From Candidatus Nomurabacteria bacterium (GTDB taxonomy: Bacteria; Patescibacteriota; Minisyncoccia; Phycocordibacterales; UBA9973): 64,000 bases of DNA. The position numbers and the translations under genes are program-made. The stretch's first letter is position 1; every line of letters begins with the position of its first letter. Under the pieces are notes generated by a model. It was not told the DNA's origin. It searched no databases and saw nothing but the letters and a program-made list of their open reading frames with translations. Shown here one piece after another: positions 40,203 to 61,193 of this stretch. Location of the stretch: the NCBI GenBank assembly GCA_026396015.1, contig JAPLXP010000003.1, positions 176,974-240,973 of the forward strand. The letters are read 5' to 3'.

Positions 40203-42212
40203 ATGAAAGTCAAAAAACTTAATCAGTTACCAGCCTGGAAGGCTAGTGCGATCCGTAACTTAAGAAAATACTTAAGATTACATGAAAACCCCCCTGTCCT
40301 TCGCGGGTTACAAATTCCACTTTTCAGTGATGTTATTGACTTTGTGCAAAGTGGTAAGAATGCTGGATATGTCAGTGCTCCTATGGGGACTGGTAAAACA
40401 GTTATTTTTACCGAATTCGCAAATGCACTAAAACAAAGAGTAATTGTTGTCGTTCCATCCATTCTTCTTATTCATCAGACCAGAGAAGAAATTGCTTCAT
40501 TTGCTCCATCGTTACGTGTCGGTCTTCTTTATTCAAAGAAGAAACAATATGATACTGACGTTGTTATTACTACTTATACCTCGTTAGGTATTGGTATCAA
40601 AAATGGAACACTTAAAGTAAAAGACTTTAATTGGCTGATTTTAGATGAAGCTCATGAGAGCTTGTCTGTAAGTCGCCAAAAGGTAGTCAATCGTTTCAAA
40701 CACGCAATCCGTTTAGGTTTTACTGCTTCTGAAAAATATGATGAGGAAAAACAATTGTCAAAATTATTGCCAAATGAAATTCATCGCATCACTATTCTTG
40801 AAGCCGTAGAAAGTGGTTTGCTGTGTCCTTTTTCTGTTGTCATTGCTCAAACTACAACGGATTTATCTAAAGTTGGTTCTGTTAATGGAGATTATGATAA
40901 AAAACAGCTTGAAAAAGCTGTAAACAAGGAGGGGCGAAATCGTTCGGCTGTAGCACTTTATGAGACAACTCCTTTTTATAAGGGTAAATCTTTGATGTGT
41001 CATTGTGTATCTATTGAGCACGCGGAAGCTGTAGCAAGAAAATTTCGTGCCAATGGGTGGCGAGCCGAAGCCGTGCATAGTCAGATTGAAGATGATACTA
41101 GAGGTAAAAGACTTCAAGATTTCTGTTCGGGGAAATTAACGGTACTTTGCAATGTTGATATTCTTACACGAGGATTCAATGCACCTATCGTGAGTATTTG
41201 TTTCAATCTTCGTCCTACTCGTTCGCTTGTAGTCGCTACTCAGAGAGCTCGTAATTTGCGCATAGACAGAAACAATTCAGACAAGTTTGCTGTTGTCGTT
41301 GATTTTGTTGATGCAAATTTTAATCGCTCTAATCCGCCTCTAACTTTTGATAAAGTTGTAGATGGGTCTGCTTTAGTTGTTCCTTCTTTCTGGAAAGATA
41401 ATAAAATTTTTTCAGAAATTTCAAAACAATTGCAACCTGCTATTCCTATAGATGATTTAAAGGTTTATGTTGAAACTAGTGAAGTACTAAGAATTACTGG
41501 AAGTATGCAAAAATGGGAAGAATCAAAGTGGGTTTCCGAAAAAGATATTAAAGATTTGTTCAATCAAAAAGGATGGAAAAACCAAAGAGAATATGATTCT
41601 CAAAGAACTAATTTTGTTGGTTTTCCTCATTCGGTTAATTTTCCTGATGTGTACAAGAAAACATTTGGTGAAGTTGTTTTTGGAAAAAAAGGGCTTAAGG
41701 ATGTCGAATGGCTTTTTGCAGAAGAAATCAAAAAATTATTTTTCGAAAATGATTGGAAAAATCAAAAAGGATACGAAAAAAACAAACCTTCCAATTGCCC
41801 TTCACCTTCAAATTTTCCAAGAATTTATAATACAACATTTAGTGAAATGATGTACGGAAGAAAAAAAGAAGTTAACGGTGTATGGTTGTCAGAAGAACAA
41901 GTTCGTGAACTTTTTTTAAAGGAAAAATGGAAAAATCAAGCTGAATATGACAAAAAAAGACCATCAGGATGTCCAAGCTTTAGTAATTTTAGGAAGTTTT
42001 ATGGAAAACCGTTTAAGGAGGTTATGTATCCTAATGGTAAATGGCCTTCAGAAGTGGATGTAAAAAAACTATTTATCGAAAATAAATGGAAAGATTACAA
42101 AGAATATAATAAAAATAAACCAAAAAATTATCCTTATTCTTTTCATTTCCCTGATATTTACAAAAAAACCTTCAATCAACTTGTTGGAGGAGAGTATAGA
42201 AAACATCTTTAA
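40203..42212 (+). CDS. SF2 (DEAH/ResIII-type) helicase A with four C-terminal ~55-aa repeats
   Basis: Walker A APMGTGKT, DEAH box LILDEAHES, motif VI TQRARNLR. C-terminus has 4 repeats of W.SE..IK.LF...WKNQ.EYDKK.P...PS.SNFP.IY.KTF. Confidence 0.8.
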   Translation: MKVKKLNQLPAWKASAIRNLRKYLRLHENPPVLRGLQIPLFSDVIDFVQSGKNAGYVSAPMGTGKTVIFTEFANALKQRVIVVVPSILLIHQTREEIASFAPSLRVGLLYSKKKQYDTDVVITTYTSLGIGIKNGTLKVKDFNWLILDEAHESLSVSRQKVVNRFKHAIRLGFTASEKYDEEKQLSKLLPNEIHRITILEAVESGLLCPFSVVIAQTTTDLSKVGSVNGDYDKKQLEKAVNKEGRNRSAVALYETTPFYKGKSLMCHCVSIEHAEAVARKFRANGWRAEAVHSQIEDDTRGKRLQDFCSGKLTVLCNVDILTRGFNAPIVSICFNLRPTRSLVVATQRARNLRIDRNNSDKFAVVVDFVDANFNRSNPPLTFDKVVDGSALVVPSFWKDNKIFSEISKQLQPAIPIDDLKVYVETSEVLRITGSMQKWEESKWVSEKDIKDLFNQKGWKNQREYDSQRTNFVGFPHSVNFPDVYKKTFGEVVFGKKGLKDVEWLFAEEIKKLFFENDWKNQKGYEKNKPSNCPSPSNFPRIYNTTFSEMMYGRKKEVNGVWLSEEQVRELFLKEKWKNQAEYDKKRPSGCPSFSNFRKFYGKPFKEVMYPNGKWPSEVDVKKLFIENKWKDYKEYNKNKPKNYPYSFHFPDIYKKTFNQLVGGEYRKHL

Positions 42213-42261
42213 AATTTTCACCTTCCACAAACACAGAGCGATAAAATGCTTTTGTGAATCA

Positions 42262-42305
42262 CAAAAGAGCAGAATCAACGAAGTTGATTCTGCTCTTTCT
42301 TTTTG
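42262..42305 (+). terminator. rho-independent terminator (agagcagaatcaacgaagttgattctgctct)
   Basis: Perfect 13-bp stem plus T-run, preceded by conserved palindrome ttttgtgaatcacaaaa. Confidence 0.7.
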
Positions 42306-42306
42306 C

Positions 42307-42336
42307 TTGACAATGTGTGTATTTTTATGATATAAT
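42307..42336 (+). promoter_or_regulatory. sigma70-type promoter TTGACA-N18-TATAAT
   Basis: Consensus hexamers upstream of helicase B. Confidence 0.55.
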
Positions 42337-42362
42337 ACTTAAAAATTAACAACTAAATATAA

Positions 42363-44261
42363 ATGAAAATAAAACTTTATGATTATCAAGAAATTGCCTA
42401 TCAGAAGGTAATACAGGCACTCAATAGTGCGGGTATCGCTCTGATGGTTATGGCAACTGGATTAGGTAAGACAATCGTATCAGCTCTGATAGCTCGATTC
42501 TTTTTGTCTTCTGGATCTGGTAAGCGCATTCTCTTTCTTTCCCATGATAATGGCATTCTAGAACAATCTTATCTGAAATATAAATTAATTTTAGGTAACG
42601 AATATTCTTATGCTCGTTTTTTTGGTAAAAAGAAAAATTGGAATGCAGATAAACATGATATTGTTTTTGCTACATTCCAATCCAAGCCGCATAAATTTTT
42701 TAAAGCGGACCACTTCGACTTTATTATTGTTGATGAGAGTCACCACAGTAAGGCTGATACTTATTTCTCTACATTAAATTATTTTACTCCTGTATGGAAG
42801 CTCGGTATGACTGCGACTCCTGATCGTGAAGATGAACGAGATATTCGTTCTATCTTTGGAAAAGAAGTTGTTACTTATGATCTTTCTGAGGCCATGGCAA
42901 ATGGTTGGCTGACACCTGTTGAATACAAGATTCTCAGTGATGGTATGGATTTAGCGATGCTTGAAGAAATTTGCCAAGAGGTATTAGTCGAAAATGTGCG
43001 TATATCTGAAAGTCAGCTCAATGAACGAATATTTATTCGTACGAGGAGTGATGAGCAGTGTAAACAGATTTTAGATTATACTAAAAATGGTTTAAAGGCT
43101 ATCGTGTTTTGTGCAAACATTACACACCTAGAACACATTATGGAGCTATTACCGAATAGTGTTGCCGTTCATTCTGGACGTACTGATGACGAGAATGATG
43201 AAGCAGAAATAATGTACCGTACTGGAAAAGCCTCCCATATACTCGTTGTAGATAAATACAATGAAGGGAAGGATTTACCTGATACTGATGTCCTTGTTTT
43301 TCTTCGTACTACTGATTCATACCGTATCTGGGTTCAACAGCTTGGACGCGGGCTACGCCTATTTCCTGGAAAAGATAAAGTTATTATTCTGGATTTTGTT
43401 GCAAACATTGAACGTGTAAAAAATGTTCATAGTTTTGCAATGCAGGTAAAAGAATATGGAGGAGGTGGAATAAATCAGGAATTCAAACTTGATACACCTC
43501 TTCATCTTGAAGGAAAAAACTTTAGCTTTGATTTCAGTTCAGAATTGGTAAATCTTATGTCTGTGTTTGAAAAGGTTAGTTTGAATTGTTATGCAAATTG
43601 GAAAGAAGCATCGAATGCTGCGATCAATCTTGGTATCACAAAACAAGAAGAATATCGTGCTTATTATAAGCAAGATATTAGACTACCCAGTGCTCCTGAA
43701 CAAGTCTACTCTGATTTTCCAGGATATAAAGTATTCTTAGGTGGAGTTTCTAAGGACTATTATCTAACTTGGCAAGAAGCCTCAATTGCTTCGATTAAAC
43801 TTGGTATTAAAACACAAGATCAATACCATAAGGATTATATGAATGATCCTAGATTGCCTTCACAAATAAATACTTTTTATCCTAATTTCCCAGGTTCAAA
43901 AGTTTTTTTTGGGGGAGTTGAAAAAGATTATTATTTAACCTTAAAAGAAGCACAAGAAGCAGCTAAAAAGTTGGGTATAAAAACCTACAAAGAGTATTCA
44001 AAAAGATACAAAGAGGATCCTAAGTTGCCATCTGTTCCAGGAAGATTTTATTCAGACTATGTAAGTTTTGATTTATTTATCGGCTCAGATTATTATTCAA
44101 CATGGCAAGAAGCTTCCGATTCTGTTAAAAAATTGAATATTTGTACTAGGGCAGATTACCAAAGAAAACAATTTTATAAAAAAGATTTAAGACTCCATTC
44201 AAATCCAGATATGTATTACAAAGATTTTCCAGACTGGCAAAATTTTTTAGGAAAAGAGTAA
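42363..44261 (+). CDS. SF2 (DESH/ResIII-type) helicase B with four C-terminal ~56-aa repeats
   Basis: Walker A ATGLGKT, DESH box IVDESHHS, motif VI QQLGRGLR. C-terminus has 4 repeats of YYLTW.EAS.A.KKLGIKT..EY.K.YK.DPRLPS.P...YS.FPG...FLGG. Confidence 0.8.
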   Translation: MKIKLYDYQEIAYQKVIQALNSAGIALMVMATGLGKTIVSALIARFFLSSGSGKRILFLSHDNGILEQSYLKYKLILGNEYSYARFFGKKKNWNADKHDIVFATFQSKPHKFFKADHFDFIIVDESHHSKADTYFSTLNYFTPVWKLGMTATPDREDERDIRSIFGKEVVTYDLSEAMANGWLTPVEYKILSDGMDLAMLEEICQEVLVENVRISESQLNERIFIRTRSDEQCKQILDYTKNGLKAIVFCANITHLEHIMELLPNSVAVHSGRTDDENDEAEIMYRTGKASHILVVDKYNEGKDLPDTDVLVFLRTTDSYRIWVQQLGRGLRLFPGKDKVIILDFVANIERVKNVHSFAMQVKEYGGGGINQEFKLDTPLHLEGKNFSFDFSSELVNLMSVFEKVSLNCYANWKEASNAAINLGITKQEEYRAYYKQDIRLPSAPEQVYSDFPGYKVFLGGVSKDYYLTWQEASIASIKLGIKTQDQYHKDYMNDPRLPSQINTFYPNFPGSKVFFGGVEKDYYLTLKEAQEAAKKLGIKTYKEYSKRYKEDPKLPSVPGRFYSDYVSFDLFIGSDYYSTWQEASDSVKKLNICTRADYQRKQFYKKDLRLHSNPDMYYKDFPDWQNFLGKE

Positions 44262-44435: not shown

Positions 44436-45179
44436 ATGAAAAAATCATTAATTATTAAAACAGAAAGCAATTTCGTAAGAGAGTTGTTATTGCTACTCAA
44501 GTATTATGATTGCTTAACAGAAGCAGATGAAATTCTTTCTCAAATAGGAGGGGTTGGAAGGAGAGAGGAATATCTTGATGCTGGAGACGAAAAACCTTCT
44601 TTGTTCCGTAGTAATGTAGATATGGACTTAGAGCCATTTGTGCTTGAAGCTATTTTGCTAAATCAAATTAAAAAATCAGATTTTTTTTCTGTAGAAATTA
44701 AGTTCAACTACAAGAATTCTAATAAAATTTTAAATGAACTTGATTCTAAGACTGAATTTACTGGAATTGGGGACGTAGAAGATTTTCTTGGTATTAATAA
44801 TTTTTCATTAGAAATTGAAACTAAGGAGGTATTTTTTATTCCTATAATAAGGACAAAAAATATTAAGGATATTAAAAAATTTATTTCAGATAAAGGCTTC
44901 GAGCCTCTTGGTACATTTGAATTACTTTCTTATCTTGGTTATGTTCATTCACTTAGGAAAAAATCAAATTGGGAAAAATCTCAAAAACTCCTACCTAAAG
45001 CTTTCCATGGAAAGGGTGTACCTATAATTGCTATACGTGATATTTTACTTAGAAGTCATAAGCAATCATATCAAAAATCAGTATTACTTTCTGCTCAGAA
45101 TCTTTATCACATCAGAGTAAGAAGTTCTGCTGGAGGATTCAATAAAATCGTTTATGTTATCTGTGAGAAAAAGAAATAA
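44436..45179 (+). CDS. hypothetical protein
   Basis: 247-aa ORF, no motif recognised; sits between helicase B and the exonuclease. Confidence 0.4.
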   Translation: MKKSLIIKTESNFVRELLLLLKYYDCLTEADEILSQIGGVGRREEYLDAGDEKPSLFRSNVDMDLEPFVLEAILLNQIKKSDFFSVEIKFNYKNSNKILNELDSKTEFTGIGDVEDFLGINNFSLEIETKEVFFIPIIRTKNIKDIKKFISDKGFEPLGTFELLSYLGYVHSLRKKSNWEKSQKLLPKAFHGKGVPIIAIRDILLRSHKQSYQKSVLLSAQNLYHIRVRSSAGGFNKIVYVICEKKK

Positions 45180-50625: not shown

Positions 50626-50881
50626 AGGGTTCACAGTCTGGTAAGTTATCCGGCTGTTTTAATTTCTTTGAAAAGTTAATAGGTTGGCTCAATCATCATT
50701 TCAATGATTGGGCAAAAAATGCAAATAATCAAAGCAAGCAAGTTAACCGTAAATCACTCGATAGTGATAGGTTAAGAAATGTCCGCATTATTCTTTCCGG
50801 AGTAATAGCGAGACAATAGTAAGTCAGTTTGGAAGAAATAAAATACTGTAAAGTATTCTTTATTTTGTTCCGTTCTATTTT

Positions 50882-52482
<1,601 letters not shown>

Positions 52483-52737
52483 ATTTGAAATTAATCGATG
52501 TATTCTATTTATAGATGCAAAGATCTTATTGAGTCGATATTGTATAGCTCAATTGACTATACAATTGCTGCGTACTACAGCATAGCGAAGTACTGACATC
52601 TGGGAAAGACCAGAATCAAAAAATACGAACGGAACAAAATAAAGAATATTTTCAAAACTTCTATTTGTTTGATTGATTAAAGCATTTATACTCTGTCTAT
52701 ATGACATGGTGCAACCTATTAATTCTAAATGAAACAA

Positions 52738-52831: not shown

Positions 52832-54481
52832 ATGAAAAAATTTTATTCAGCTTTATTGATTTTGCTTTTAGTTATTGTTCTTGTTCCCACTAAATCTTTT
52901 GCTAGTTCTACTTGGGTTGATGTGTCTTCAGCAGGATCTGGTGCTTGGCAGGCTGTGGCGTCTTCATCTAATGGTACAAAATTAGTCGCAATTGTTTATG
53001 GCGGTGGAATATATACCTCTTCAGATAGTGGTGTGACTTGGGCGCCTCAATCTTCTGCTGGAAATAGAAATTGGAAGAACGTAGCATCTTCATCAGATGG
53101 TACAAAATTGGTCGCCACTGCTTATGGTGGTGATATTTATACCTCTACAAATAGTGGTGTAACTTGGGTAGATCAAACTACATCTGGTGCTCGTAACTGG
53201 AATGGGTTAGCTGTGTCTTCTGATGGATCAAAAATTGTCGCTGCTGTTTATGGTGGTGATATTTATACTTCTACTAATGGTGGTGTTGACTGGACTGATA
53301 GAGTTTCTGCTGGAGTGTCAAATTGGAATACTATAGCTGCCTCTTCTGATGGTGTTAATATTGTTGCTGGTATTTTTGGTGGTTATTTATCTACTTCAAA
53401 TGATGGAGGTGCTACTTGGTCTATACAAAATTCTTCTGGTTCAAGAAATTGGTTTTCATTAGCTTCTTCATCTGATGGTACAAAATTAGCTGCAGTTGAA
53501 TATGGTGGTGGAATTTATACCTCTACTGATAGTGGTGTAACTTGGGTAAATAAAACTTCCGCTGGTAATCATAATTGGAAAAGTATTGCTATTTCGGATG
53601 ATTTATCAAGATTAATTGCTGTTGCATATAGTGTGGATTATGTTTATCTTTCTATAGATGGTGGTTTAACATGGATACGTCAAGACTCTGCAGGTGCTAG
53701 TTACTGGCAATATGTAACAGCATCTTCTGATTTTACTAATGTGGTTTCTCTTGTTTATGGTGGTGATATTTATCATGGATTATTTACTTTTCTTCCTGTT
53801 GTGTCAACTGGATCTTCCTCAAGTACAACATTAGATTCTACTGTTCTATCTGGATCAATAAATTTTTCTGGAGGTGAGAATAATACTGTCAGAGGTATAA
53901 ATTATGGTCTTACTTCTAGTTATGGTTCTGTTGTTTCTGAAATTGGCTCATACGGAGCAGGGACTTTTAACTTGAATGTTACAGGTCTTACTTGTGCTAC
54001 TACATACCACTATTCAGCTTTTTCTACAAATGGTGTAGGTACTAGTACGGGTTCTGATTCTACTTTTGATACATTACCTTGCCCAGTTCATCATTCTGGT
54101 GGTCATCCACCAATAATTACTTCTTCTGGAGGAGGTGGTGCACCAGTTGTGACAGATATTATAGTTCCTACAGTTGTGATCCCTCCTGCGCCAGTTGAAA
54201 ATAAGATTATTTTAAATAATGTTGTTACTAGTTCTTCTTCATCATCAAATAAACTCTCAAAGCATTTAAATATAAATATGAAGGATCCAGAGGTTAAAAT
54301 ACTACAACAATTTTTAATCGATCAAAATAAAGGGTCAAAATCTAAATTGATTTACTTGAGTAATTCTTTCGGACCAAAAACAAAATCTGCACTTGTTGAA
54401 TGGCAAAAATCTGCAGGATTGGAATCTGACGGAGTATTGGGACCCGAGACTAGATCAAAGATAAACGATATTTTAAAATAA
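52832..54481 (+). CDS. secreted BNR/Asp-box beta-propeller protein with FN3-like module and C-terminal peptidoglycan-binding domain
   Basis: Signal peptide. ~7 repeats SAG..NW...A.SSDGTKLVA..YGG.IYTS..SGVTW (Asp-box S.D.G.TW). C-terminal PG_binding_1-like LVEWQKSAGLESDGVLGPET. Confidence 0.6.
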   Translation: MKKFYSALLILLLVIVLVPTKSFASSTWVDVSSAGSGAWQAVASSSNGTKLVAIVYGGGIYTSSDSGVTWAPQSSAGNRNWKNVASSSDGTKLVATAYGGDIYTSTNSGVTWVDQTTSGARNWNGLAVSSDGSKIVAAVYGGDIYTSTNGGVDWTDRVSAGVSNWNTIAASSDGVNIVAGIFGGYLSTSNDGGATWSIQNSSGSRNWFSLASSSDGTKLAAVEYGGGIYTSTDSGVTWVNKTSAGNHNWKSIAISDDLSRLIAVAYSVDYVYLSIDGGLTWIRQDSAGASYWQYVTASSDFTNVVSLVYGGDIYHGLFTFLPVVSTGSSSSTTLDSTVLSGSINFSGGENNTVRGINYGLTSSYGSVVSEIGSYGAGTFNLNVTGLTCATTYHYSAFSTNGVGTSTGSDSTFDTLPCPVHHSGGHPPIITSSGGGGAPVVTDIIVPTVVIPPAPVENKIILNNVVTSSSSSSNKLSKHLNINMKDPEVKILQQFLIDQNKGSKSKLIYLSNSFGPKTKSALVEWQKSAGLESDGVLGPETRSKINDILK

Positions 54482-54490
54482 TAATGAATT

Positions 54491-54529
54491 AAAAAGAGCG
54501 CAACCGTAGGTTGCGCTCTTTGCCTTTTT
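54491..54529. terminator. bidirectional terminator (aagagcgcaaccgtaggttgcgctctt)
   Basis: Perfect 12-bp stem between convergent genes. Confidence 0.7.
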
Positions 54530-54538
54530 ATATAAAGG

Positions 54539-56095
54539 CTATTTTTTTTGTAACTTCATAATATTGTCTCCAATCTTTATAAAGTAAAATCCTGTTGGAT
54601 AATTACTCATATCGATTTGATTATTATTACTATTACCAATTAAAACTGATTTTCCTTGAGAATTAAAAATCTCATAGTTTAAATCAGAGGAAATGTGTAA
54701 AATGTCATTAACTGGATTTGGGTATATTCCAAATTCTTTAGAATTAGAATTCTCTAATATTCCTGTGGTCCAGCTGCCTAATTGAATTGTCATTACATTT
54801 GAAGTAAATTGAGTACCCCTACTATCAGTACCTTTTATTCTTGTATACACAATTCCGTTCTGCCTGAAATCAGTATTAATACTGATTTCACCACTCACAT
54901 TGGTGATTTGGATATTTGGTGGTGTTCCTTGGGAAATATTAAAATTTTGATCAGAAGACCATTCTTGCCATACTACAGCTGTAGTATTCGGCATTAAGGT
55001 GTAATCAAGTATTGTTTCCCCAGTAGTGTAGTTGCTGTTGATACATTTCTTTATGGTTAAAGTAAATGCATTAGGTGTAACCTTTGAAGTTTTCTTGCTT
55101 AATTTTACACCCCAGTTTCCTCCCTTGGAATTCGCTGTGTAAGGTTGGAACCAATACAATGTATTGGTGTCCAATCCTAGAATCACTTTTGTGCTCTTTT
55201 GAATAGAATCTCCAGTGAATGAAACAGTATCAGTATATTTATAGTTTGTAGTTCCGTCCTTCCAGTATTTTATGTACTGATAAGATTGAAGACTAAAACC
55301 TACAATATTAGTCTCAACTGTAATTTTATCTGATTGCTCAGAAAGGTTGGTAATTTCACCGGTCGCAGGTTGAGATACTACATAGTATCCAGACCGCATA
55401 GGTGTGATTGAGTCACGGCCTCCAAGGCTCGATGTTTTAATACCACAGGCTATAGTAGTCTGTGAGGGTATTGTACCAAAGCTAACAGTGAATGGCTTAT
55501 TGTCTAATACCGTGTAAGTGTTCTTTTTGAAAAGTTCACTTCCATTGAAAGTATTATAAACTTTAGTACTATCACTAGTGCCAAAAGTCGATACTATGGT
55601 ACTTAACCCACCAGTCTCTACTTTTATTGTAGCAGTTACTCTGCCAGCAGAGTCAATACTCGGGTTTGTTACCCAAGAAATTCTTGGCTTCATAAGTGAA
55701 TCAGCAATTAGAATGTTACAAATCGAATTTGATTTGTATGTTATATTCTGAATTTTGATTCTTGCTTGAATGCATATCAGCCCTCTCGGAAGTCCACCTA
55801 AACTCTTGGCTTCAATGATGGAATCATTGATGCTTTGAACGGTGTCGTTACCGATGCGTGTGTACCCATAAATAGGGTAGAAGGCGGATGTGTCCTGTGT
55901 AGGAAAATATCCAACCATAATTTCAACAGTGGAGTCAGTTTTACTTGACTTCCAGTTGATTGAGTAACTAACTTTCTTTATTCCACCATTTGCAGAAAAA
56001 AGAGTTACGTTTTGGGCGTTAGCCGATGCTCCAGCCATGATTATTCCAATCACAGCGAGCAAAAAGATACTGATTTTATTTTTCATTGTTTTCAA
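54539..56095 (-). CDS. secreted beta-rich protein with T9SS-type (Por_Secre_tail-like) C-terminal sorting domain
   Basis: Signal peptide. C-terminal ~70 aa GIYPNPVNDILHISSDLNYEIFNSQGKSVLIG....IDMSNYPTGFYFIKIGDNIMKLQKK matches the hallmark YPNP...GK.V....L..G.Y....K pattern. Confidence 0.55.
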   Translation of the reverse strand: MKTMKNKISIFLLAVIGIIMAGASANAQNVTLFSANGGIKKVSYSINWKSSKTDSTVEIMVGYFPTQDTSAFYPIYGYTRIGNDTVQSINDSIIEAKSLGGLPRGLICIQARIKIQNITYKSNSICNILIADSLMKPRISWVTNPSIDSAGRVTATIKVETGGLSTIVSTFGTSDSTKVYNTFNGSELFKKNTYTVLDNKPFTVSFGTIPSQTTIACGIKTSSLGGRDSITPMRSGYYVVSQPATGEITNLSEQSDKITVETNIVGFSLQSYQYIKYWKDGTTNYKYTDTVSFTGDSIQKSTKVILGLDTNTLYWFQPYTANSKGGNWGVKLSKKTSKVTPNAFTLTIKKCINSNYTTGETILDYTLMPNTTAVVWQEWSSDQNFNISQGTPPNIQITNVSGEISINTDFRQNGIVYTRIKGTDSRGTQFTSNVMTIQLGSWTTGILENSNSKEFGIYPNPVNDILHISSDLNYEIFNSQGKSVLIGNSNNNQIDMSNYPTGFYFIKIGDNIMKLQKK

Positions 56096-56145
56096 ATATT
56101 TAGTACTATTATAGCAGATTAATTCTTATTTGTCAATATATATAC

Positions 56146-56175
56146 TTGACAAAATGGTATTGATTGTGATATAAT
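56146..56175 (+). promoter_or_regulatory. sigma70-type promoter TTGACA-N18-TATAAT
   Basis: Consensus hexamers upstream of ORF 56224. Confidence 0.5.
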
Positions 56176-56223: not shown

Positions 56224-57702
56224 ATGAAAAATACAATGAACAAAACAATAGTATCAATATTTGCTATTTTAGCATTTGTTTTTATGGCACCTAATATATA
56301 CGCAGCTTCTGTATCTACTGCTGGGGTATCAAATATAACTCAGACTTCTGCTACAGTTAGTGGTACCTACTCTCTAGGTTCAAATTATGCCGAGGTATAT
56401 TTTGAATATGCTGATAACTCAGGATTCTACGGATCAAAGAGTACTACTCATTCTGTATATACTTCATCTGCATCAACATTTGCAAACATAACAGGTCTAA
56501 ATCCAAATACTACTTATTACTATCGATTAATCTCAGAAGGTAGTATGTATGAATCAGGTGGGACTCTATATTTCAAAACACTATCAAGTAATATTGACTT
56601 GCCATTATCTGCTATGACTGCCGGCGCGAAAGACATCAGTACGAATTCTGCAACTATCTCAGGAGTAATTTCAAATGCTCCATCTAGTGTATGGTTTGAG
56701 TATGGAAAGACAACATCACTAGGTAATACTCTGCCTGCTTCAACTACTACATTGGGTAACTCAACAACAGCTACTGCCAATCTTTCAAACCTAGAAGCAA
56801 ATACTACATATTATTACCGTGTGGGAGCTTTGAATTCAGTCGGTCAATCAAATGGAAGTATTTTATATTTCACAACTTTGAAAAATGGAGGTAGTACAGG
56901 TCCATGTGTGATTACTTCATTTACATCAAATACAAATTCTGTTTATGCTGGGTCACCTGTAACATTGTCATGGGTGACTACTGGTTGTACATATTTAAAC
57001 TTTGGTCAATCTGGTGGAGCATCATTCCCAATGTCAGGATCTGCTACCGTGACACTCAGCACTACTTCGACTTATACACTCTATGCATACGGTACGAATA
57101 ATAATGATACAAAATCTGTGACTATCACTGTCGTAAATAACGGAGAGGGAAACAATGGTGGATGGAATGGTGGTTGTGGAAATTATAACTGTAATCCACC
57201 ATGTAGTTATAGTTGCAACACTTGTAATTACAATTGTGGTGGAACCAACAATGATTGTTCTTGGTATGATTATTCCTGCAATAGAAATTTAAATAATTAT
57301 GAACAAATTAGAGGTATGGTTACTTGCTCGGTCTGTTCTTCTTCATATTATCCAGTAAATTATTTACCATCAAATAGTTACAATGGTTACGTGAATAGTT
57401 CTGCAAATCAAAACAATAATTTAAATTCAGGTGGTAAAAATGGTATATATGATGTGTCTGCCAATAGTAAATCACTATTAGGGAATAATGCTAGTGCATC
57501 AGATGTTTCAAATGTTGATTCACAAAATTCAAATATAGATTCTAGTAATCTTGCAGCTGGTGCTGGCTTTGGTCTAGTTTCATTTTTACCTAGTACTCTC
57601 GTAGGATGGTTACTCTTTATTATATTTATTTTGTTTATAATCTTTATCGCAAGAAAACTTACTGCAAAGAAAAACAATAATGCACACGGTCACGCACACT
57701 AA
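56224..57702 (+). CDS. surface protein with FN3-like repeats, Cys-rich module and C-terminal TM anchor with basic tail
   Basis: Signal peptide, repeated TATVSG...L.PNTTYYYR FN3-like units, Cys-rich CGNYNCNPPCSYSCNTCNYNCGG, C-terminal LPSTLVGWLLFIIFILFIIFIARKLTAKK. Confidence 0.5.
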   Translation: MKNTMNKTIVSIFAILAFVFMAPNIYAASVSTAGVSNITQTSATVSGTYSLGSNYAEVYFEYADNSGFYGSKSTTHSVYTSSASTFANITGLNPNTTYYYRLISEGSMYESGGTLYFKTLSSNIDLPLSAMTAGAKDISTNSATISGVISNAPSSVWFEYGKTTSLGNTLPASTTTLGNSTTATANLSNLEANTTYYYRVGALNSVGQSNGSILYFTTLKNGGSTGPCVITSFTSNTNSVYAGSPVTLSWVTTGCTYLNFGQSGGASFPMSGSATVTLSTTSTYTLYAYGTNNNDTKSVTITVVNNGEGNNGGWNGGCGNYNCNPPCSYSCNTCNYNCGGTNNDCSWYDYSCNRNLNNYEQIRGMVTCSVCSSSYYPVNYLPSNSYNGYVNSSANQNNNLNSGGKNGIYDVSANSKSLLGNNASASDVSNVDSQNSNIDSSNLAAGAGFGLVSFLPSTLVGWLLFIIFILFIIFIARKLTAKKNNNAHGHAH

Positions 57703-57706
57703 ACAC

Positions 57707-57734
57707 TTGACAAATAATATAGATTTGCTATACT
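57707..57734 (+). promoter_or_regulatory. sigma70-type promoter TTGACA-N16-TATACT
   Basis: Drives a ~70-nt unit ending at terminator 57791-57812. Confidence 0.5.
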
Positions 57735-57740
57735 AGCATT

Positions 57741-57812
57741 GTGAGTGAAAGGGTTCCGATAATTTATAAAAACAAATGACTAGCAAAAAGCCACCGCAAG
57801 GTGGTTTTTTGT
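57741..57812 (+). ncRNA. candidate small transcript (promoter-to-terminator unit, ~70 nt)
   Basis: Bounded by a consensus promoter and the ccaccgcaaggtgg+T6 terminator. Could alternatively encode a 15-aa peptide MTSKKPPQGGFLFAV. Confidence 0.25.
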
Positions 57813-57874
57813 TTGCCGTGTAGTGTTTTATTTATATTTATATTATAATAGTATTCGTAGTCGCTTGTGTGTTC

Positions 57875-57976
57875 TAGTCAGCGGCTGCACTCACATAGTC
57901 ATTTGTGTTGGAGTCTAGCACCCGCTGACTTGAGCACAGAATATAAAATCACCACGATGAAAATCGTGGTGATTTT
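57875..57976 (+). ncRNA. candidate structured small RNA
   Basis: TATAAT at 57865-57870; tcagcgg...ccgctga long-range pairing; ends in terminator aaaatcaccacgatgaaaatcgtggtgatttt. Confidence 0.25.
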
Positions 57977-57999
57977 ATATTTAGTTTGTAGTCTGTATC

Positions 58000-58491: not shown

Positions 58492-58599
58492 ATGGCAGCA
58501 AAAAAGAAGGTAGTAAAAAAAGCAGTTAAAAAAGTTGTAAAGAAAGTTGCAAAGAAAGCAGTTAAGAAGGCTGTGAAGAAAGTTGCAAAGAAGAAGTAA
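58492..58599 (+). CDS. 35-aa lysine-rich basic peptide (histone H1-tail-like KKAVKK repeats)
   Basis: ATG 58492 to TAA 58597: MAAKKKVVKKAVKKVVKKVAKKAVKKAVKKVAKKK. Followed by terminator. Below the ORF-track size cutoff. Confidence 0.4.
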   Translation: MAAKKKVVKKAVKKVVKKVAKKAVKKAVKKVAKKK

Positions 58600-58703: not shown

Positions 58704-61193
58704 GTGTTAAAATGGGTTCCTATGAGTATTATACAGAGTATATTTGGGGATGAGAGTAGCGCCTTTGTAAAGAAGGCTAAAAAGACTGTTTCTGTTATCA
58801 ACTCCCTAGAAGAAAAAATCAAAAATTTAAAAGATGAAGAATTCAAAGATAAGACTATTGAGTTGAGAAGTCGCCTCCAGAAGGGTGAATCACTTGATGA
58901 TGTATTACCCGAAGCTTTTGCAGTGGTTCGTGAGGTTGCCTACCGTACAAAAGGTGAGCGTCACTATGATGTGCAGATGATCGGTGGATGTGCATTGCAA
59001 GCTGGAAATATTGCCGAGATGCGTACAGGTGAAGGTAAAACTTTGACTGCTACAACTCCCGCATATCTGAATGCACTTTCAAGTGAAGGTGTACATATCA
59101 TAACAGTGAATGATTATCTTTCTCGTCGTGATGCTGTGTGGATGGGTCCAATATTTTCTATGCTCGGCATGACTGTGGGTGTTGTGAATTCTCAGAACAC
59201 ATCATACATATACGATTCATCCCATATCGATAAAGTATCTGATTCAGAGAGTGATGCAGGATCATTTAAAGTTGAGTACGAATGTCTTCGTCCTTGCAGT
59301 AGAAAGGAAGCCTACGCCGCTGATATCACATACGGTACGAACAATGAATTCGGTTTCGATTTCCTTCGCGACAATTTAGCTCAACATGTAGACAATCTAG
59401 TTCAAAGGGGTCATCACTATGCTATCGTCGATGAGGTGGACTCTATCTTGATAGATGAATCACGTACTCCACTGATCATATCATCACCAGCAGAAGATTC
59501 AGAAGATCTTTATTATACTTTTGCTGATATTTCAAAACAATTAAAAAAAGAAGATGATTATACTGTGGACGAAAAACTCCGCGCGATATCTCTGACTGAT
59601 GCAGGTATTACTAATGCAGAAAATCTTTTAGGTATTTCTGATATTTATACAGAGAAGGGTATCAAGTATGTTCATCATCTAGAGACTGCAGTACGTGCAC
59701 GTGCATTATTTGAGAACAATAAAGACTACGTAGTAAAAGAAGGTGAGGTAATCATCGTTGATGCATTTACTGGACGTCTGCAGCCGGGCCGCCGATGGAG
59801 TGAAGGGTTGCATCAGGCTATCGAGGCAAAGGAAGGTGTAAAAATAGAAAAGGAGACTCGAGCAGTCGCTTCTATTACATTCCAAAACTATTTCCGTTTT
59901 TACAAGAAACTATCAGGTATGACTGGTACTGCTGATACATCAAAAGAAGAATTCCAAAAAGTTTACGGTATCGATGTTATTGTTGTACCTACACATAGAG
60001 ATGTAGCTCGTCTTGATAAACAAGATCTGATATATCAGACTGAAGAGGGTAAATATAAAGCTATTGTATCTAAAGTAAAAGAACTTCAGATCAAGGGTCA
60101 GCCAGTATTGATTGGTACTGTGTCTATCGAAAAGAACGAAGTACTATCTGCTTATCTAAAACAAGCCGGAGTGATTCATACAATCCTAAATGCCAAGAAC
60201 CATGAACACGAAGGTGAGATCATCGCCAACGCCGGTAGATATGGTGCGGTTACTGTAGCCACAAACATGGCAGGACGTGGAGTTGATATCAAGCTAGGAG
60301 GTGTACCTTACTCAAAAGAATCTTATGACAAGGTCCGTGATCTAGGTGGACTATTCGTTTTAGGTACTGAAAGACATGAAGCTCGTCGCATCGACAACCA
60401 GCTACGTGGACGATCTGGTCGTCAGGGTGACCCAGGTGAGACTCAATTCTACGTATCACTCGAAGACGACCTAATGCGTATCTTCGGTGGGGATCGCGTA
60501 AAGGCTATGATGGGAAGACTAGGAGTAGAGGAAGATCAGCCTATTCAGAACAGTATCATATCAAAAACACTTGAGAATGCTCAGGCTAAAATTGAAGGTT
60601 TCCATTTTGACTCTCGAAAACATACTCTAGAATACGATGATCTGATGAACCACCAGAGAAGTGTCGTATATGGACGCCGCAGAACTATGCTCACTGGTAA
60701 GACTGAAGATATTCAGATTTTCCTTGATGGAATAGTAGCTGAATACCCAGAATTGGCTGATGTTATAGTAGAAAAGAAGGCCAAGTCAGGTGAAGGTCCA
60801 TTTTATGAGACTATCCGCCGAATCGCATTATATACTACAGACAATCTATGGGTTGAACATCTAGAATCTATGGATCATACTCGATCTTCAGTAAACCTAC
60901 GTGCCTATGGCCAGAGAGATCCACTCATTGAATACAAGAAAGAGGGTCTGCGAATGTTTAAAGAAATGGAGGCAATGTTCAAAGAGCAAATTGCATCATT
61001 TGTCCGCACATTGAACATCACTGAGAACAATGGTGGTATCCAAGAAGTACCATCAACACCGACAATCATACTCTCAACTGACGATCAGAGTGGTTCTGTA
61101 CCGTCTATATCAGGGGATAAAGTAGGCCGCAATGATCTATGTCCATGTGGCTCTGGCAAGAAATATAAGAAGTGTCATGGTCAAGAAAAATAG
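58704..61193 (+). CDS. secA: preprotein translocase ATPase SecA
   Basis: DEAD-like motor (GEGKTL, DEVD), PPXD, C-terminal zinc finger CPCGSGKKYKKCHG. Confidence 0.9.
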   Translation: MLKWVPMSIIQSIFGDESSAFVKKAKKTVSVINSLEEKIKNLKDEEFKDKTIELRSRLQKGESLDDVLPEAFAVVREVAYRTKGERHYDVQMIGGCALQAGNIAEMRTGEGKTLTATTPAYLNALSSEGVHIITVNDYLSRRDAVWMGPIFSMLGMTVGVVNSQNTSYIYDSSHIDKVSDSESDAGSFKVEYECLRPCSRKEAYAADITYGTNNEFGFDFLRDNLAQHVDNLVQRGHHYAIVDEVDSILIDESRTPLIISSPAEDSEDLYYTFADISKQLKKEDDYTVDEKLRAISLTDAGITNAENLLGISDIYTEKGIKYVHHLETAVRARALFENNKDYVVKEGEVIIVDAFTGRLQPGRRWSEGLHQAIEAKEGVKIEKETRAVASITFQNYFRFYKKLSGMTGTADTSKEEFQKVYGIDVIVVPTHRDVARLDKQDLIYQTEEGKYKAIVSKVKELQIKGQPVLIGTVSIEKNEVLSAYLKQAGVIHTILNAKNHEHEGEIIANAGRYGAVTVATNMAGRGVDIKLGGVPYSKESYDKVRDLGGLFVLGTERHEARRIDNQLRGRSGRQGDPGETQFYVSLEDDLMRIFGGDRVKAMMGRLGVEEDQPIQNSIISKTLENAQAKIEGFHFDSRKHTLEYDDLMNHQRSVVYGRRRTMLTGKTEDIQIFLDGIVAEYPELADVIVEKKAKSGEGPFYETIRRIALYTTDNLWVEHLESMDHTRSSVNLRAYGQRDPLIEYKKEGLRMFKEMEAMFKEQIASFVRTLNITENNGGIQEVPSTPTIILSTDDQSGSVPSISGDKVGRNDLCPCGSGKKYKKCHGQEK

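What the first reader, a model, noticed from the sequence alone, without database searches (positions are those of the whole stretch)
54539..56095. T9SS-type C-terminal sorting domain in an organism that otherwise looks CPR-like
The last ~70 aa (GIYPNPVNDILHISSDLNYEIFNSQGKSVLIG…YPTGFYFIKIGDNIMKLQKK) match the hallmark pattern of the Por secretion system C-terminal domain: YPNP, a GK.V beta-strand, and G.Y..K near the end. T9SS is characteristic of Bacteroidota and the FCB group. The rest of this window argues against Bacteroidota; there is no TAnnTTTG promoter, and canonical TTGACA/TATAAT promoters are present. Either this CTD is used by a different sorting machinery, the gene was horizontally acquired, or the lineage assignment is wrong.
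Basis: partly seen in the sequence, partly recalled or inferred. Interest (0 to 1): 0.55.

Follow-up and report, generated by a model that had tools for sequence, protein, structure and literature searches.

The report
T9SS-type sorting tail in CPR bacteria
A tiny, probably single-membraned CPR bacterium (class Paceibacteria) carries a conserved secreted surface-protein gene whose tail is a genuine Bacteroidota type IX secretion sorting domain, although the machinery that reads that tail is not known to exist in this lineage.

Summary
ORF 54539-56095 (-) ends in a domain that passes the curated cut-offs of PF18962 (47.4 bits against 27) and TIGR04183 (35 against 23). Its predicted fold best matches cargo CTDs solved inside the T9SS translocon.

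The lineage is CPR. SecA is 70-81% identical to Paceibacterota/Paceibacteria homologues, and the gene lies near a 16S gene on the same contig.

It is not a one-off. At least 13 fast-diverging homologues exist. All 10 with retrieved context sit in Paceibacteria-type neighbourhoods, paired divergently with an fn3-repeat, membrane-anchored partner. In 7 assemblies the gene is next to the 16S gene, and both genes have near-perfect sigma-70 promoters.

Eleven of 12 homologues also have Gln after the signal-peptide cleavage site, the Bacteroidota "Q-rule".

Best reading: an old acquisition from Bacteroidota, now inherited within this clade, in which the tail works independently of a T9SS. That last step is inferred. 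Only the 64-kb window was checked for T9SS genes, not a whole genome.

NCBI already auto-annotates one homologue as a T9SS sorting-domain protein, but I found no paper that discusses it.

The parts
54539..56086 (-). CDS of the CTD-bearing secreted protein (515 aa from the ATG; an alternative TTG start at 56095 gives 518 aa). It consists of a signal peptide, an all-beta body of about 430 aa with weak fn3-type similarity, and a T9SS type A CTD.
56015..56086 (-). Sec/SPase I signal peptide MKNKISIFLLAVIGIIMAGASANA, with predicted cleavage before Gln (ANA|QNV), which is the Bacteroidota Q-rule pattern.
   Evidence: Sequence; heuristic predictor; family comparison; Q-rule described in PMC5837995
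54542..54727 (-). T9SS type A C-terminal domain (aa 457-518): YPNP in beta1, the Gly of the beta3-beta4 loop, G.YFIK in beta6, and Lys residues at the C-terminus.
56108..56136 (-). Perfect sigma-70 promoter of the CTD gene (TTGACA-17-TGcTATAAT), leaving a leader of about 14 nt.
   Evidence: conserved in orthologous loci
54493..54521 (.). Bidirectional intrinsic terminator with a 13-bp stem, between the stop codon of the CTD gene and the convergent upstream gene.
56224..57702 (+). Divergently transcribed partner: signal peptide, fn3/PhoD_N-like repeats, an Asn/Ser/Cys-rich linker, a conserved ...FLPSTLVGWL motif, a TM helix and a basic tail. It has its own perfect promoter at 56146-56175.
   Evidence: adjacent to every family member whose context was retrieved
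50880..52485 (+). 16S rRNA gene (1606 nt, no 23S after it). It ties the gene physically to a ribosomal marker; in relatives it sits directly next to the CTD gene.
58704..61193 (+). SecA, used here as the phylogenetic marker and synteny anchor.
52832..54481 (+). Secreted protein with BNR/Ycf48-like propeller repeats and a C-terminal PG_binding_1 domain, inserted between the 16S gene and the CTD gene in this genome. The third surface protein in the cluster.
   Evidence: no gene is called at this position in L003, where the 16S occupies most of the gap

Best explanation
The gene encodes an abundant, Sec-exported, fn3-rich cell-surface protein of a Paceibacteria (CPR) subclade. Its two ends, a signal peptide with Gln at +1 and a type A T9SS C-terminal domain, were inherited from a Bacteroidota T9SS cargo gene acquired long ago. 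The gene has since been domesticated: it has native sigma-70 promoters and a fixed position between the 16S gene and SecA. It has been passed on vertically while its body diverged very fast and its CTD was repeatedly remodelled or swapped. The organism most probably has no outer membrane and no T9SS. The CTD therefore cannot act as an outer-membrane export signal here. It is kept as a compact seven-stranded Ig-like module that works independently of a T9SS. The most likely role is to hold or present the protein at the cell surface together with the divergently transcribed, membrane-anchored fn3 partner. Shown: the domain identity, the CPR lineage, the conserved family and locus, the expression signals and the evolutionary rates. 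Inferred: the Bacteroidota origin, the absence of a T9SS in the genome, and the surface-retention or partner role.
For: Domain identity.

Lineage.

No T9SS or outer-membrane gene appears among about 45 annotated window proteins. [quoted passage not shown]

Family: 13 homologues, all 10 with retrieved context lying in Paceibacteria-type neighbourhoods next to the partner gene. Eight of the 12 scanned pass the Pfam cut-off. A broad CTD HMM found no other CTD protein in 1.4 Mb of mostly CPR loci.

Selection: body dN/dS is 0.09-0.16. The CTD keeps PNP, the beta3-beta4 Gly (12/12), G.Y and the C-terminal Lys across the family.

Bacteroidota origin: about 8,300 CTD-only relatives at E<=0.001. All four named ones are Bacteroidota and a fifth lies in a Bacteroidota-type neighbourhood. 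Gln at +1 occurs in 11 of 12 members against about 3% of other predicted CPR signal peptides.

Domestication and high expression: 12/12 consensus promoters are conserved in the orthologous loci, and a strong terminator follows the gene.
Against: No complete genome of a family-bearing organism could be scanned, so the absence of a T9SS and of an outer membrane rests on the literature and on 64 kb of sequence.

The partner-docking idea has no direct support. It is weakened by L036 versus L004, where the partner is 95.5% identical but the CTD only 50%.

The CTD has the most relaxed constraint in the protein (dN/dS 0.63), which also fits a nearly dispensable domain.

Conservation of exactly the two elements needed for T9SS recognition (PMC11285876) could mean that some T9SS component, possibly a host's, still reads the domain.

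The body could not be modelled (pLDDT 36), so its function is unknown.
Confidence: 0.55

Rival explanations
1. Host-directed mimicry. The CPR cell is an episymbiont of a Bacteroidota host. The Sec-released protein presents an authentic cargo CTD to surface-exposed host T9SS components (the PorV shuttle and the PorU/PorZ attachment complex). It is thereby bound to, or even covalently attached to, the host surface. The membrane-anchored fn3 partner on the CPR cell then engages it, forming a two-part adhesion bridge.
For: The two CTD elements shown to be required for T9SS recognition (the beta3-beta4 Gly and the C-terminal Lys strand; PMC11285876) are the ones kept across a family whose other CTD positions turn over very fast. 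CTDs are species-specific in Bacteroidota, and the CPR CTDs change or are swapped faster than any other part of the locus, as expected if they track hosts. The window's CTD is 56% identical to a Polaribacter CTD. The pairing with a membrane-anchored partner is conserved, and expression signals are very strong.
Against: The host of these Paceibacteria is unknown and no interaction was tested. CTD dN/dS is below 1 (0.63), so positive selection is not demonstrated. The similarity to Polaribacter comes from a hit set pre-selected for similarity to the query. In a T9SS the CTD is normally engaged from the periplasmic side first. Gln at +1 is not explained by this model.
Confidence: 0.12
2. Vestigial passenger. 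The CTD came along with an acquired cargo gene and persists only because it is a stable terminal beta-sandwich that helps folding or stability. It has no sorting, anchoring or recognition role.
For: The CTD is the least constrained part (aa identity 42-50% against 74-87% for the body in close pairs; dN/dS 0.63 against 0.09-0.16). Three members have lost the YPNP motif and four fall below the Pfam cut-off.
Against: The domain is intact, strictly C-terminal and recognisable in all 13 members, although the bodies have diverged to about 25% identity or beyond BLAST detection. No member scanned lacks a terminal CTD. CTD modules appear to be exchanged between body subgroups rather than lost.
Confidence: 0.2
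3. This Paceibacteria subclade has an unrecognised outer layer and a T9SS-like or other dedicated machinery that reads the CTD as a true sorting signal.
For: The recognition motifs are retained. Whole genomes were not examined.
Against: T9SS genes are reported absent outside FCB phyla and Patescibacteria are described as lacking an outer membrane. The window has no such gene. The neighbouring secreted proteins use PG_binding_1 and a TM/sortase-like anchor, as in single-membrane envelopes. There is only one CTD family per locus set, whereas T9SS-bearing genomes carry many CTD cargo proteins (the latter from my own knowledge).
Confidence: 0.04
4. Artefact: a Bacteroidota gene mis-assembled or mis-binned into a CPR contig.
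For: None beyond the unexpected domain.
Against: The same gene-partner arrangement next to CPR 16S and/or SecA is found in at least 10 independent assemblies from different samples. Local GC (0.35) matches the flanks. The gene has CPR-type consensus promoters.
Confidence: 0.01

Closest known systems
Type A CTD cargo proteins of the Bacteroidota type IX secretion system (e.g. F. johnsoniae NucA, FspA and RemA; P. gingivalis RgpB; T. forsythia mirolase)
   Same: N-terminal Sec signal peptide; strictly C-terminal ~65-aa domain passing TIGR04183 and PF18962; predicted seven-stranded Ig-like sandwich that superposes on solved CTDs; conserved beta3-beta4 Gly and C-terminal Lys; Gln at +1 of the signal peptide.
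   Different: The organism is a CPR (Paceibacteria) bacterium, not in the FCB group. No T9SS or outer-membrane gene is seen. There is a single CTD family instead of many cargo proteins (the latter from my own knowledge). The promoter is sigma-70 type. The CTD evolves faster than the rest of the protein.
Type B CTD proteins anchored by PorP-like proteins encoded next to them (PMC9143113, abstract seen)
   Same: A CTD protein encoded next to a dedicated membrane-associated partner, which suggests that cognate pairs provide surface anchorage.
   Different: The partner here is an fn3-repeat protein with a single C-terminal TM helix, not an outer-membrane beta-barrel. The CTD is type A. Any interaction between the two is hypothetical.
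Tannerella forsythia S-layer proteins TfsA/TfsB (from my own knowledge, not checked here)
   Same: Two adjacent, highly expressed, Ig/fn3-rich surface proteins that carry T9SS CTDs.
   Different: Only one protein of the CPR pair has a CTD. S-layer formation was not tested. No T9SS is available for export.
Sortase/LPXTG-type and exosortase-type tripartite sorting signals (relevant to the partner protein)
   Same: A short conserved motif (FLPSTL.GWL), then a hydrophobic helix and a basic tail at the extreme C-terminus.
   Different: The motif matches no Pfam or NCBIfam sorting-signal model, and no sortase was identified nearby.

Membership tests
Por_Secre_tail / T9SS type A sorting domain (PF18962, TIGR04183) | Score at or above the curated HMM cut-offs | tested here: met
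   PF18962 47.4 bits (cut-off 27); TIGR04183 35 bits (cut-off 23). Eight of 12 family members pass the Pfam cut-off.
Por_Secre_tail / T9SS type A sorting domain (PF18962, TIGR04183) | Domain located at the extreme C-terminus of a protein with an N-terminal Sec signal peptide | tested here: met
   Domain at aa 457-517 of 518. The signal peptide MKNKISIFLLAVIGIIMAGASANA|Q was found by sequence inspection and a heuristic. No dedicated signal-peptide predictor was available.
Por_Secre_tail / T9SS type A sorting domain (PF18962, TIGR04183) | Compact seven-stranded Ig-like beta-sandwich resembling solved CTDs | tested here: met
   The CTD model has pLDDT 85.7. Its top PDB matches are T9SS CTDs: 8glk_D (TM 0.70/0.74, rmsd 2.0 A), 5m11, 7pq4, 8glj_D, 8gl6_D, 5ag8. 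Caveats: this is a predicted model built on an alignment of other CTDs, and DSSP assigned six strands of three or more residues to it, with seven seen only in the low-confidence full-length model.
Por_Secre_tail / T9SS type A sorting domain (PF18962, TIGR04183) | Conserved Gly at the beta3-beta4 loop and conserved Lys in the last strand (PMC11285876) | tested here: met
   Gly is present in 12 of 12 members, and a Lys lies near the C-terminus in the family alignments. The Gly aligns with that of 8glk_D.
Functional T9SS cargo (protein actually secreted by a type IX secretion system) | Genome encodes the T9SS core (SprA/Sov, PorK/L/M/N or GldK-N, PorV, PorU and others) | not testable with these tools
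   Only the 64-kb window and 20-kb loci could be read. None of about 45 window proteins is a T9SS part. The literature says these genes are absent outside FCB phyla.
Functional T9SS cargo (protein actually secreted by a type IX secretion system) | Diderm envelope with an outer membrane and LPS to cross and to be anchored to | not testable with these tools
   No outer-membrane or LPS gene is in the window. The absence of an outer membrane in Patescibacteria is described as 'proposed' (PMC12102498).
Functional T9SS cargo (protein actually secreted by a type IX secretion system) | Organism belongs to Bacteroidota or the FCB superphylum | tested here: not met
   SecA relatives and the nearest GTDB genomes are all CPR/Paceibacteria. 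The gene is linked to a 16S gene in these CPR-type contigs.
Bacteroidota Q-rule SPase I substrates (PMC5837995) | Gln immediately after the signal-peptidase I cleavage site | tested here: met
   Predicted ANA|Q here. Eleven of 12 family members have Gln at +1, against 3 of about 94 other predicted signal peptides in CPR loci. Cleavage sites are predicted, not measured.
Bacteroidota Q-rule SPase I substrates (PMC5837995) | Glutaminyl cyclase present to form the N-terminal pyroglutamate | not tested
   No whole genome was available, and no such gene was seen in the window annotations.

The most novel reading that the evidence does not exclude
Paceibacteria episymbionts secrete a decoy T9SS cargo. 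The authentic CTD is read by the surface-exposed shuttle and attachment components of a Bacteroidota host's T9SS, so the host itself tethers the symbiont's adhesin to its own surface. The membrane-anchored fn3 partner on the CPR cell completes the bridge. The CTD (and the Q-rule signal peptide) would then be a genomic marker of host range for an uncultured CPR clade.
Probability: 0.1. Interest if true: 0.85.

Novelty: new variant of a known kind. Interest (0 to 1): 0.52.

Why it matters
T9SS sorting domains are treated as a hallmark of Bacteroidota and FCB bacteria and as meaningless without the translocon. Here a bona fide CTD is conserved, apparently highly expressed and still keeps its recognition motifs in a lineage thought to have neither an outer membrane nor a T9SS. 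Either the CTD fold has a second, T9SS-independent job at a single-membrane cell surface, or it is aimed at the T9SS of another organism.

The second possibility would give a sequence-based clue to the hosts of Paceibacteria, which are almost entirely unknown. It could be tested directly by CTD-swap secretion assays in Flavobacterium.

There is also a practical warning: the automatic annotation 'T9SS type A sorting domain-containing protein' cannot be taken as evidence of a T9SS in MAGs.

Tried and rejected
- A CTD-only query in the 5.8-billion-protein word-indexed search returned nothing, because only one candidate shared words with it. This used the last search of that kind.
- The full-length AlphaFold model from a two-sequence alignment was unusable for the body (mean pLDDT 35.8), so no fold-based function could be assigned to the N-terminal ~430 aa. 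Pfam gives only sub-threshold fn3/Pur_ac_phosph_N hits.
- Foldseek against AFDB50, wanted for organism names of the nearest CTDs, was not available.
- Searches of PMC and bioRxiv combining T9SS, Por_Secre_tail, PF18962/TIGR04183 or 'C-terminal sorting domain' with Patescibacteria, CPR or Parcubacteria terms found no paper dealing with this.
- Misassembly or contamination was considered and rejected because the locus recurs in independent assemblies.
- A generic Ig or Cna-B-like domain cross-hitting the model was considered, because of a weak hit to a collagen-adhesin repeat (6fwv). It was rejected because both curated cut-offs are passed, the domain is strictly terminal, the YPNP and C-terminal Lys motifs are present, and solved T9SS CTDs are the top structural matches.
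- CTD-partner co-evolution was examined and not supported: L036 versus L004 have partners 95.5% identical but CTDs only 50% identical.
- An NJ tree of 155 CTDs did not resolve the family as a clade. This is uninformative for a 65-aa domain and for a comparison set pre-selected for similarity to the query.
Full report
**1. The observation**

The ATG three codons in (56086) is the more likely start. Public gene calls give a 515-aa product that is 100% identical (P0001). The -10 box of a perfect promoter ends at 56108, which leaves a leader of about 14 nt to that ATG.

The C-terminal ~62 residues match PF18962 Por_Secre_tail at 47.4 bits (gathering cut-off 27) and TIGR04183 at 35 bits (cut-off 23).

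On its own, the 80-aa tail matches the C-terminal domain of a solved lipase (7pzj) at E=4.5e-8, aligned up to the last residue. A profile built around the tail also hits the cargo CTDs in the F. johnsoniae translocon cryo-EM structures (8glk_D, 8glj_D), the mirolase CTD (8qb1) and, weakly, gingipain CTDs.

A CTD-only AlphaFold model is confident (mean pLDDT 85.7). Its best PDB matches are T9SS CTDs: NucA in the translocon (8glk_D: TM 0.70/0.74, rmsd 2.0 A, 29% identity), then PorZ, RgpB, FspA and RemA. The domain call is therefore confirmed by sequence, position and predicted fold.

**2. The lineage**

The window carries a complete 16S rRNA gene (50880-52485, 1606 nt) with no 23S after it, plus five tRNAs. 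About 45 proteins were annotated and all are housekeeping: aminoacyl-tRNA synthetases, IF-2, ClpB, ParB, RelA/SpoT, TopA, DprA, RNase J, Obg, SecA, DnaE and others. None is a T9SS, LPS or outer-membrane component.

The SecA of the window has thousands of close relatives. Every named one among the best 120 (73-81% identity) is Candidatus Parcubacteria, Paceibacterota, Pacebacteria, Nomurabacteria or 'Patescibacteria group'. In the GTDB species collection the nearest genomes are Paceibacterota MAGs at 80% SecA identity. Next come Paceibacteria, Nomurabacteria and Minisyncoccia MAGs at 70-75%, some of which are labelled only 'uncultured bacterium' or 'uncultured Candidatus Saccharibacteria'.

GC content around the gene (0.35) matches its flanks.

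**3. A conserved family, not a stray gene**

Only two close homologues exist in the 5.8-billion-protein collection (100% and 70% identity). The 70% homologue lies in a syntenic contig: partner, CTD gene, 16S, tRNA, Obg.

I scanned the flanks of SecA in the GTDB relatives. This revealed CTD-bearing proteins of about 490 aa at the same position and orientation in four more Paceibacteria genomes (L036, L004, L013, L012). Three of these pass the Pfam cut-off on their own (38.8, 27.8 and 34.6 bits; L012 scores 18.9).

An exhaustive HMMER search of 1.84 billion representatives gave 8,309 hits at E<=0.001. Nearly all match the CTD only. A handful match the body too. Body-level phmmer identified P0124, P0125, P0126, P0127, P0139 and P0143 as further members, and P0144 is the C-terminal half of a member split by a frameshift.

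Every member whose context I retrieved lies in a Paceibacteria-type neighbourhood. The neighbours include SecA, SecD/F, SecG, RNase J, SBP_bac_5, MFS, RNR and Obg, several of which also occur in the window. Every one is divergently adjacent to the same partner gene.

In six other assemblies the CTD gene abuts the 3' end of a 16S gene (L003, L085, L088, L036, L012, L004). In the window an extra gene lies between them. Three MAG contigs (L036, L012, L004) in fact break inside that 16S.

A broad CTD HMM built from 150 hits found no other CTD protein in 1.4 Mb of mostly CPR loci, apart from one Bacteroidota control locus. NCBI already names the L036 protein 'T9SS type A sorting domain-containing protein [Candidatus Paceibacterota bacterium]' (MBP9715718.1).

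**4. Anatomy and evolution**

The protein has three parts. First is a Sec/SPase I signal peptide (MKNKISIFLLAVIGIIMAGASANA|QNV). Second is an all-beta body with only weak fn3/Pur_ac_phosph_N-type similarity. Third is the CTD.

Bodies of different subgroups are barely alignable. L003 versus L013 gives 24% identity over 476 aa (E=6e-14), and the window versus L036 aligns only over the last ~107 aa, although their SecA proteins are 80% identical. Within close pairs the body is under strong purifying selection (dN/dS 0.09 and 0.16), so these are functional proteins.

The CTD behaves differently and is the fastest-changing piece. L036 and L004 have SecA 96.8%, partner 95.5% and body 86.8% identical, but CTDs only 50% identical (dN/dS 0.63).

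CTD relationships are also incongruent with body relationships. L003's CTD is 66% identical to that of P0127, whose body belongs to the L012 subgroup. The window's CTD is more similar to a Polaribacter CTD (56%) than to its own orthologue's (47%). This suggests that CTD modules are exchanged. The caveat is that the non-family CTDs in that comparison were pre-selected for similarity to the query.

Despite this turnover, all members end in an intact CTD. The family keeps (Y)PNP in beta1, the Gly of the beta3-beta4 loop (12/12), ID.S, G.Y in beta6 and a Lys near the C-terminus. The Gly and the C-terminal Lys strand are the two elements shown experimentally to be needed for T9SS function in P. gingivalis (PMC11285876).

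**5. A second Bacteroidota signature**

In 11 of 12 members the predicted signal-peptidase site is followed by Gln: ANA|Q, SNA|Q, VVA|Q, VDG|Q, LSA|Q, ASA|Q (twice), VQA|Q, AYS|Q, ANA|Q and AQA|Q. L013 has AKA|N. This is the Bacteroidetes 'Q-rule' (PMC5837995).

It is not a trait of the lineage. The partner proteins in the same genomes have Ala or Gly at +1. A uniform heuristic found Gln at +1 in only 3 of about 94 non-family signal peptides predicted in the CPR loci.

All four named nearest non-family CTDs are from Bacteroidota (Ichthyenterobacterium, Luteibaculaceae, Polaribacter and a Bacteroidota MAG), and one more lies in a CHU_C/LpxB context. Both ends of the protein thus point to a Bacteroidota cargo gene as the ancestor. 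The huge size of the CTD family there, against one small family here, sets the direction of transfer.

**6. Expression signals**

The 128-bp divergent intergenic region holds two 12/12 sigma-70 consensus promoters with extended -10 elements, one for each gene. A 13-bp-stem bidirectional terminator follows the stop codon. Perfect or near-perfect promoters for both genes recur in L003, L036, L004, L013, L084, L088 and L090, while in L012 only one was found. No TAnnTTTG motif lies in the window's intergenic region, and none recurs consistently in the other loci. The gene is therefore fully domesticated, and the pair is probably highly expressed.

**7. Mechanism**

In Bacteroidota the CTD directs periplasmic cargo through the outer-membrane translocon. 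It is then usually cleaved by PorU and the cargo is attached to anionic LPS (abstracts; PMC11285876). T9SS genes are reported absent outside FCB phyla, and an absence of an outer membrane is proposed for Patescibacteria. The neighbouring secreted proteins use a peptidoglycan-binding domain and a TM/sortase-like anchor, as in single-membrane envelopes.

I therefore judge it most likely (about 0.55) that Sec export alone puts the protein outside the cell. On this reading the CTD survives as a T9SS-independent Ig-like module that retains or presents the protein at the surface, probably together with the always-adjacent membrane-anchored fn3 partner. The pair may form a major surface layer. This step is inferred, and the L036/L004 comparison does not support simple CTD-partner co-evolution.

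There are three rivals. In the first, the domain is a nearly neutral passenger (0.2). In the second, it is aimed at the T9SS of a Bacteroidota host (0.1-0.12). This is the most novel reading, and it fits the retained recognition motifs and the fast, modular CTD turnover. In the third, the clade has a cryptic machinery of its own (0.04). Misassembly is excluded.

**8. Comparison with what is known, and novelty**

As a domain, this is a member of PF18962/TIGR04183: every defining feature that could be tested was met. As 'T9SS cargo' it cannot be filed. The organism is not in the FCB group (tested, not met), and the presence of the machinery and of an outer membrane could not be tested.

The closest analogies are type A cargo proteins, type B CTD proteins with adjacent PorP-like anchors (PMC9143113) and, from memory, the CTD-bearing S-layer pair TfsA/TfsB of T. 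forsythia.

I found no paper that discusses CTDs in CPR. The only prior trace is NCBI's automatic product name.

I rate it a new variant of a known kind, of moderate interest. It is a real, conserved oddity with a testable link to the open question of CPR hosts. However, its function is not established, and the key negative (no T9SS in the genome) is not verified here.

Noticed in passing
window 57553-57699 (+); orthologues in L003, L036, L004, L013, L012, L084: The partner protein ends in a conserved tripartite signal: A(G/S)AG..(S/G)F(L/F)P.T(L/F).GWL, then a hydrophobic helix of about 20 aa and a basic tail. It resembles a sortase- or exosortase-type sorting signal (cf. LPXTG, IPTL-CTERM) but matches no Pfam or NCBIfam model. 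It may be an undescribed CPR sorting motif.
   Followed up: partly
window ~57724-57990 (+); homologous blocks in L003, L036, L004, L005-L009, L012, L013, L015: A conserved non-coding block of about 230-270 nt (72-93% nt identity across genomes whose SecA proteins are only 70-80% identical to the window's). It occurs in either orientation relative to SecA. It has an invariant TGnTATACT box, two hairpins followed by T-runs, and a nearly invariant ~55-nt core. RNAalifold predicts an 11-bp long-range helix (ACAAATGACTA/TAGTCATTTGT) with three covarying pairs. There is no credible Rfam match (only weak sub-threshold hits at E<=1). It is either one structured RNA of about 250 nt or two tandem sRNAs that pair in trans.
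   Followed up: partly
window 58492-58599 (+): A mini-ORF encodes a 35-aa Lys/Ala/Val-repeat peptide (MAAKKKVVKKAVKKVVKKVAKKAVKKAVKKVAKKK). It is conserved (MAAKKK plus xKK repeats, 21-77 aa) directly upstream of SecA in at least 11 Paceibacteria loci, and L084 has a 48-aa gene called at that position. Its function is unknown.
   Followed up: partly
window 50880-52485 (+); L088 5025-6898: The 16S rRNA gene is not followed by a 23S gene and is 1606 nt long against a 1533-nt model. The L088 relative has a 1874-nt 16S, which implies an insertion. From my own knowledge, unlinked rRNA genes and 16S insertions are typical of CPR.
   Followed up: no
window 52832-54481 (+): A secreted protein with BNR/Ycf48-like beta-propeller repeats and a C-terminal PG_binding_1 domain sits between the 16S gene and the CTD gene. 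No gene is called at this position in the syntenic relative L003, where the 16S fills most of the gap, so it looks like a lineage-specific insertion into a surface-protein hot spot. In L006, which lacks the CTD family, an FG-GAP + PG_binding_1 protein lies upstream of SecA instead.
   Followed up: partly
L091 2004-3655 (+): A family member is split into two overlapping ORFs (273 aa and 278 aa, the latter being P0144). This is either a frameshift pseudogene or an assembly error. Its CTD is the one most similar to many other family CTDs.
   Followed up: no
window 40203-44261 (+): Two adjacent ResIII/DEAD-type helicase genes. The second carries an INT_rpt (integrase repeat unit) domain, and unannotated ORFs follow at 44436-45179. 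This could be a remnant of a mobile or defence element.
   Followed up: no
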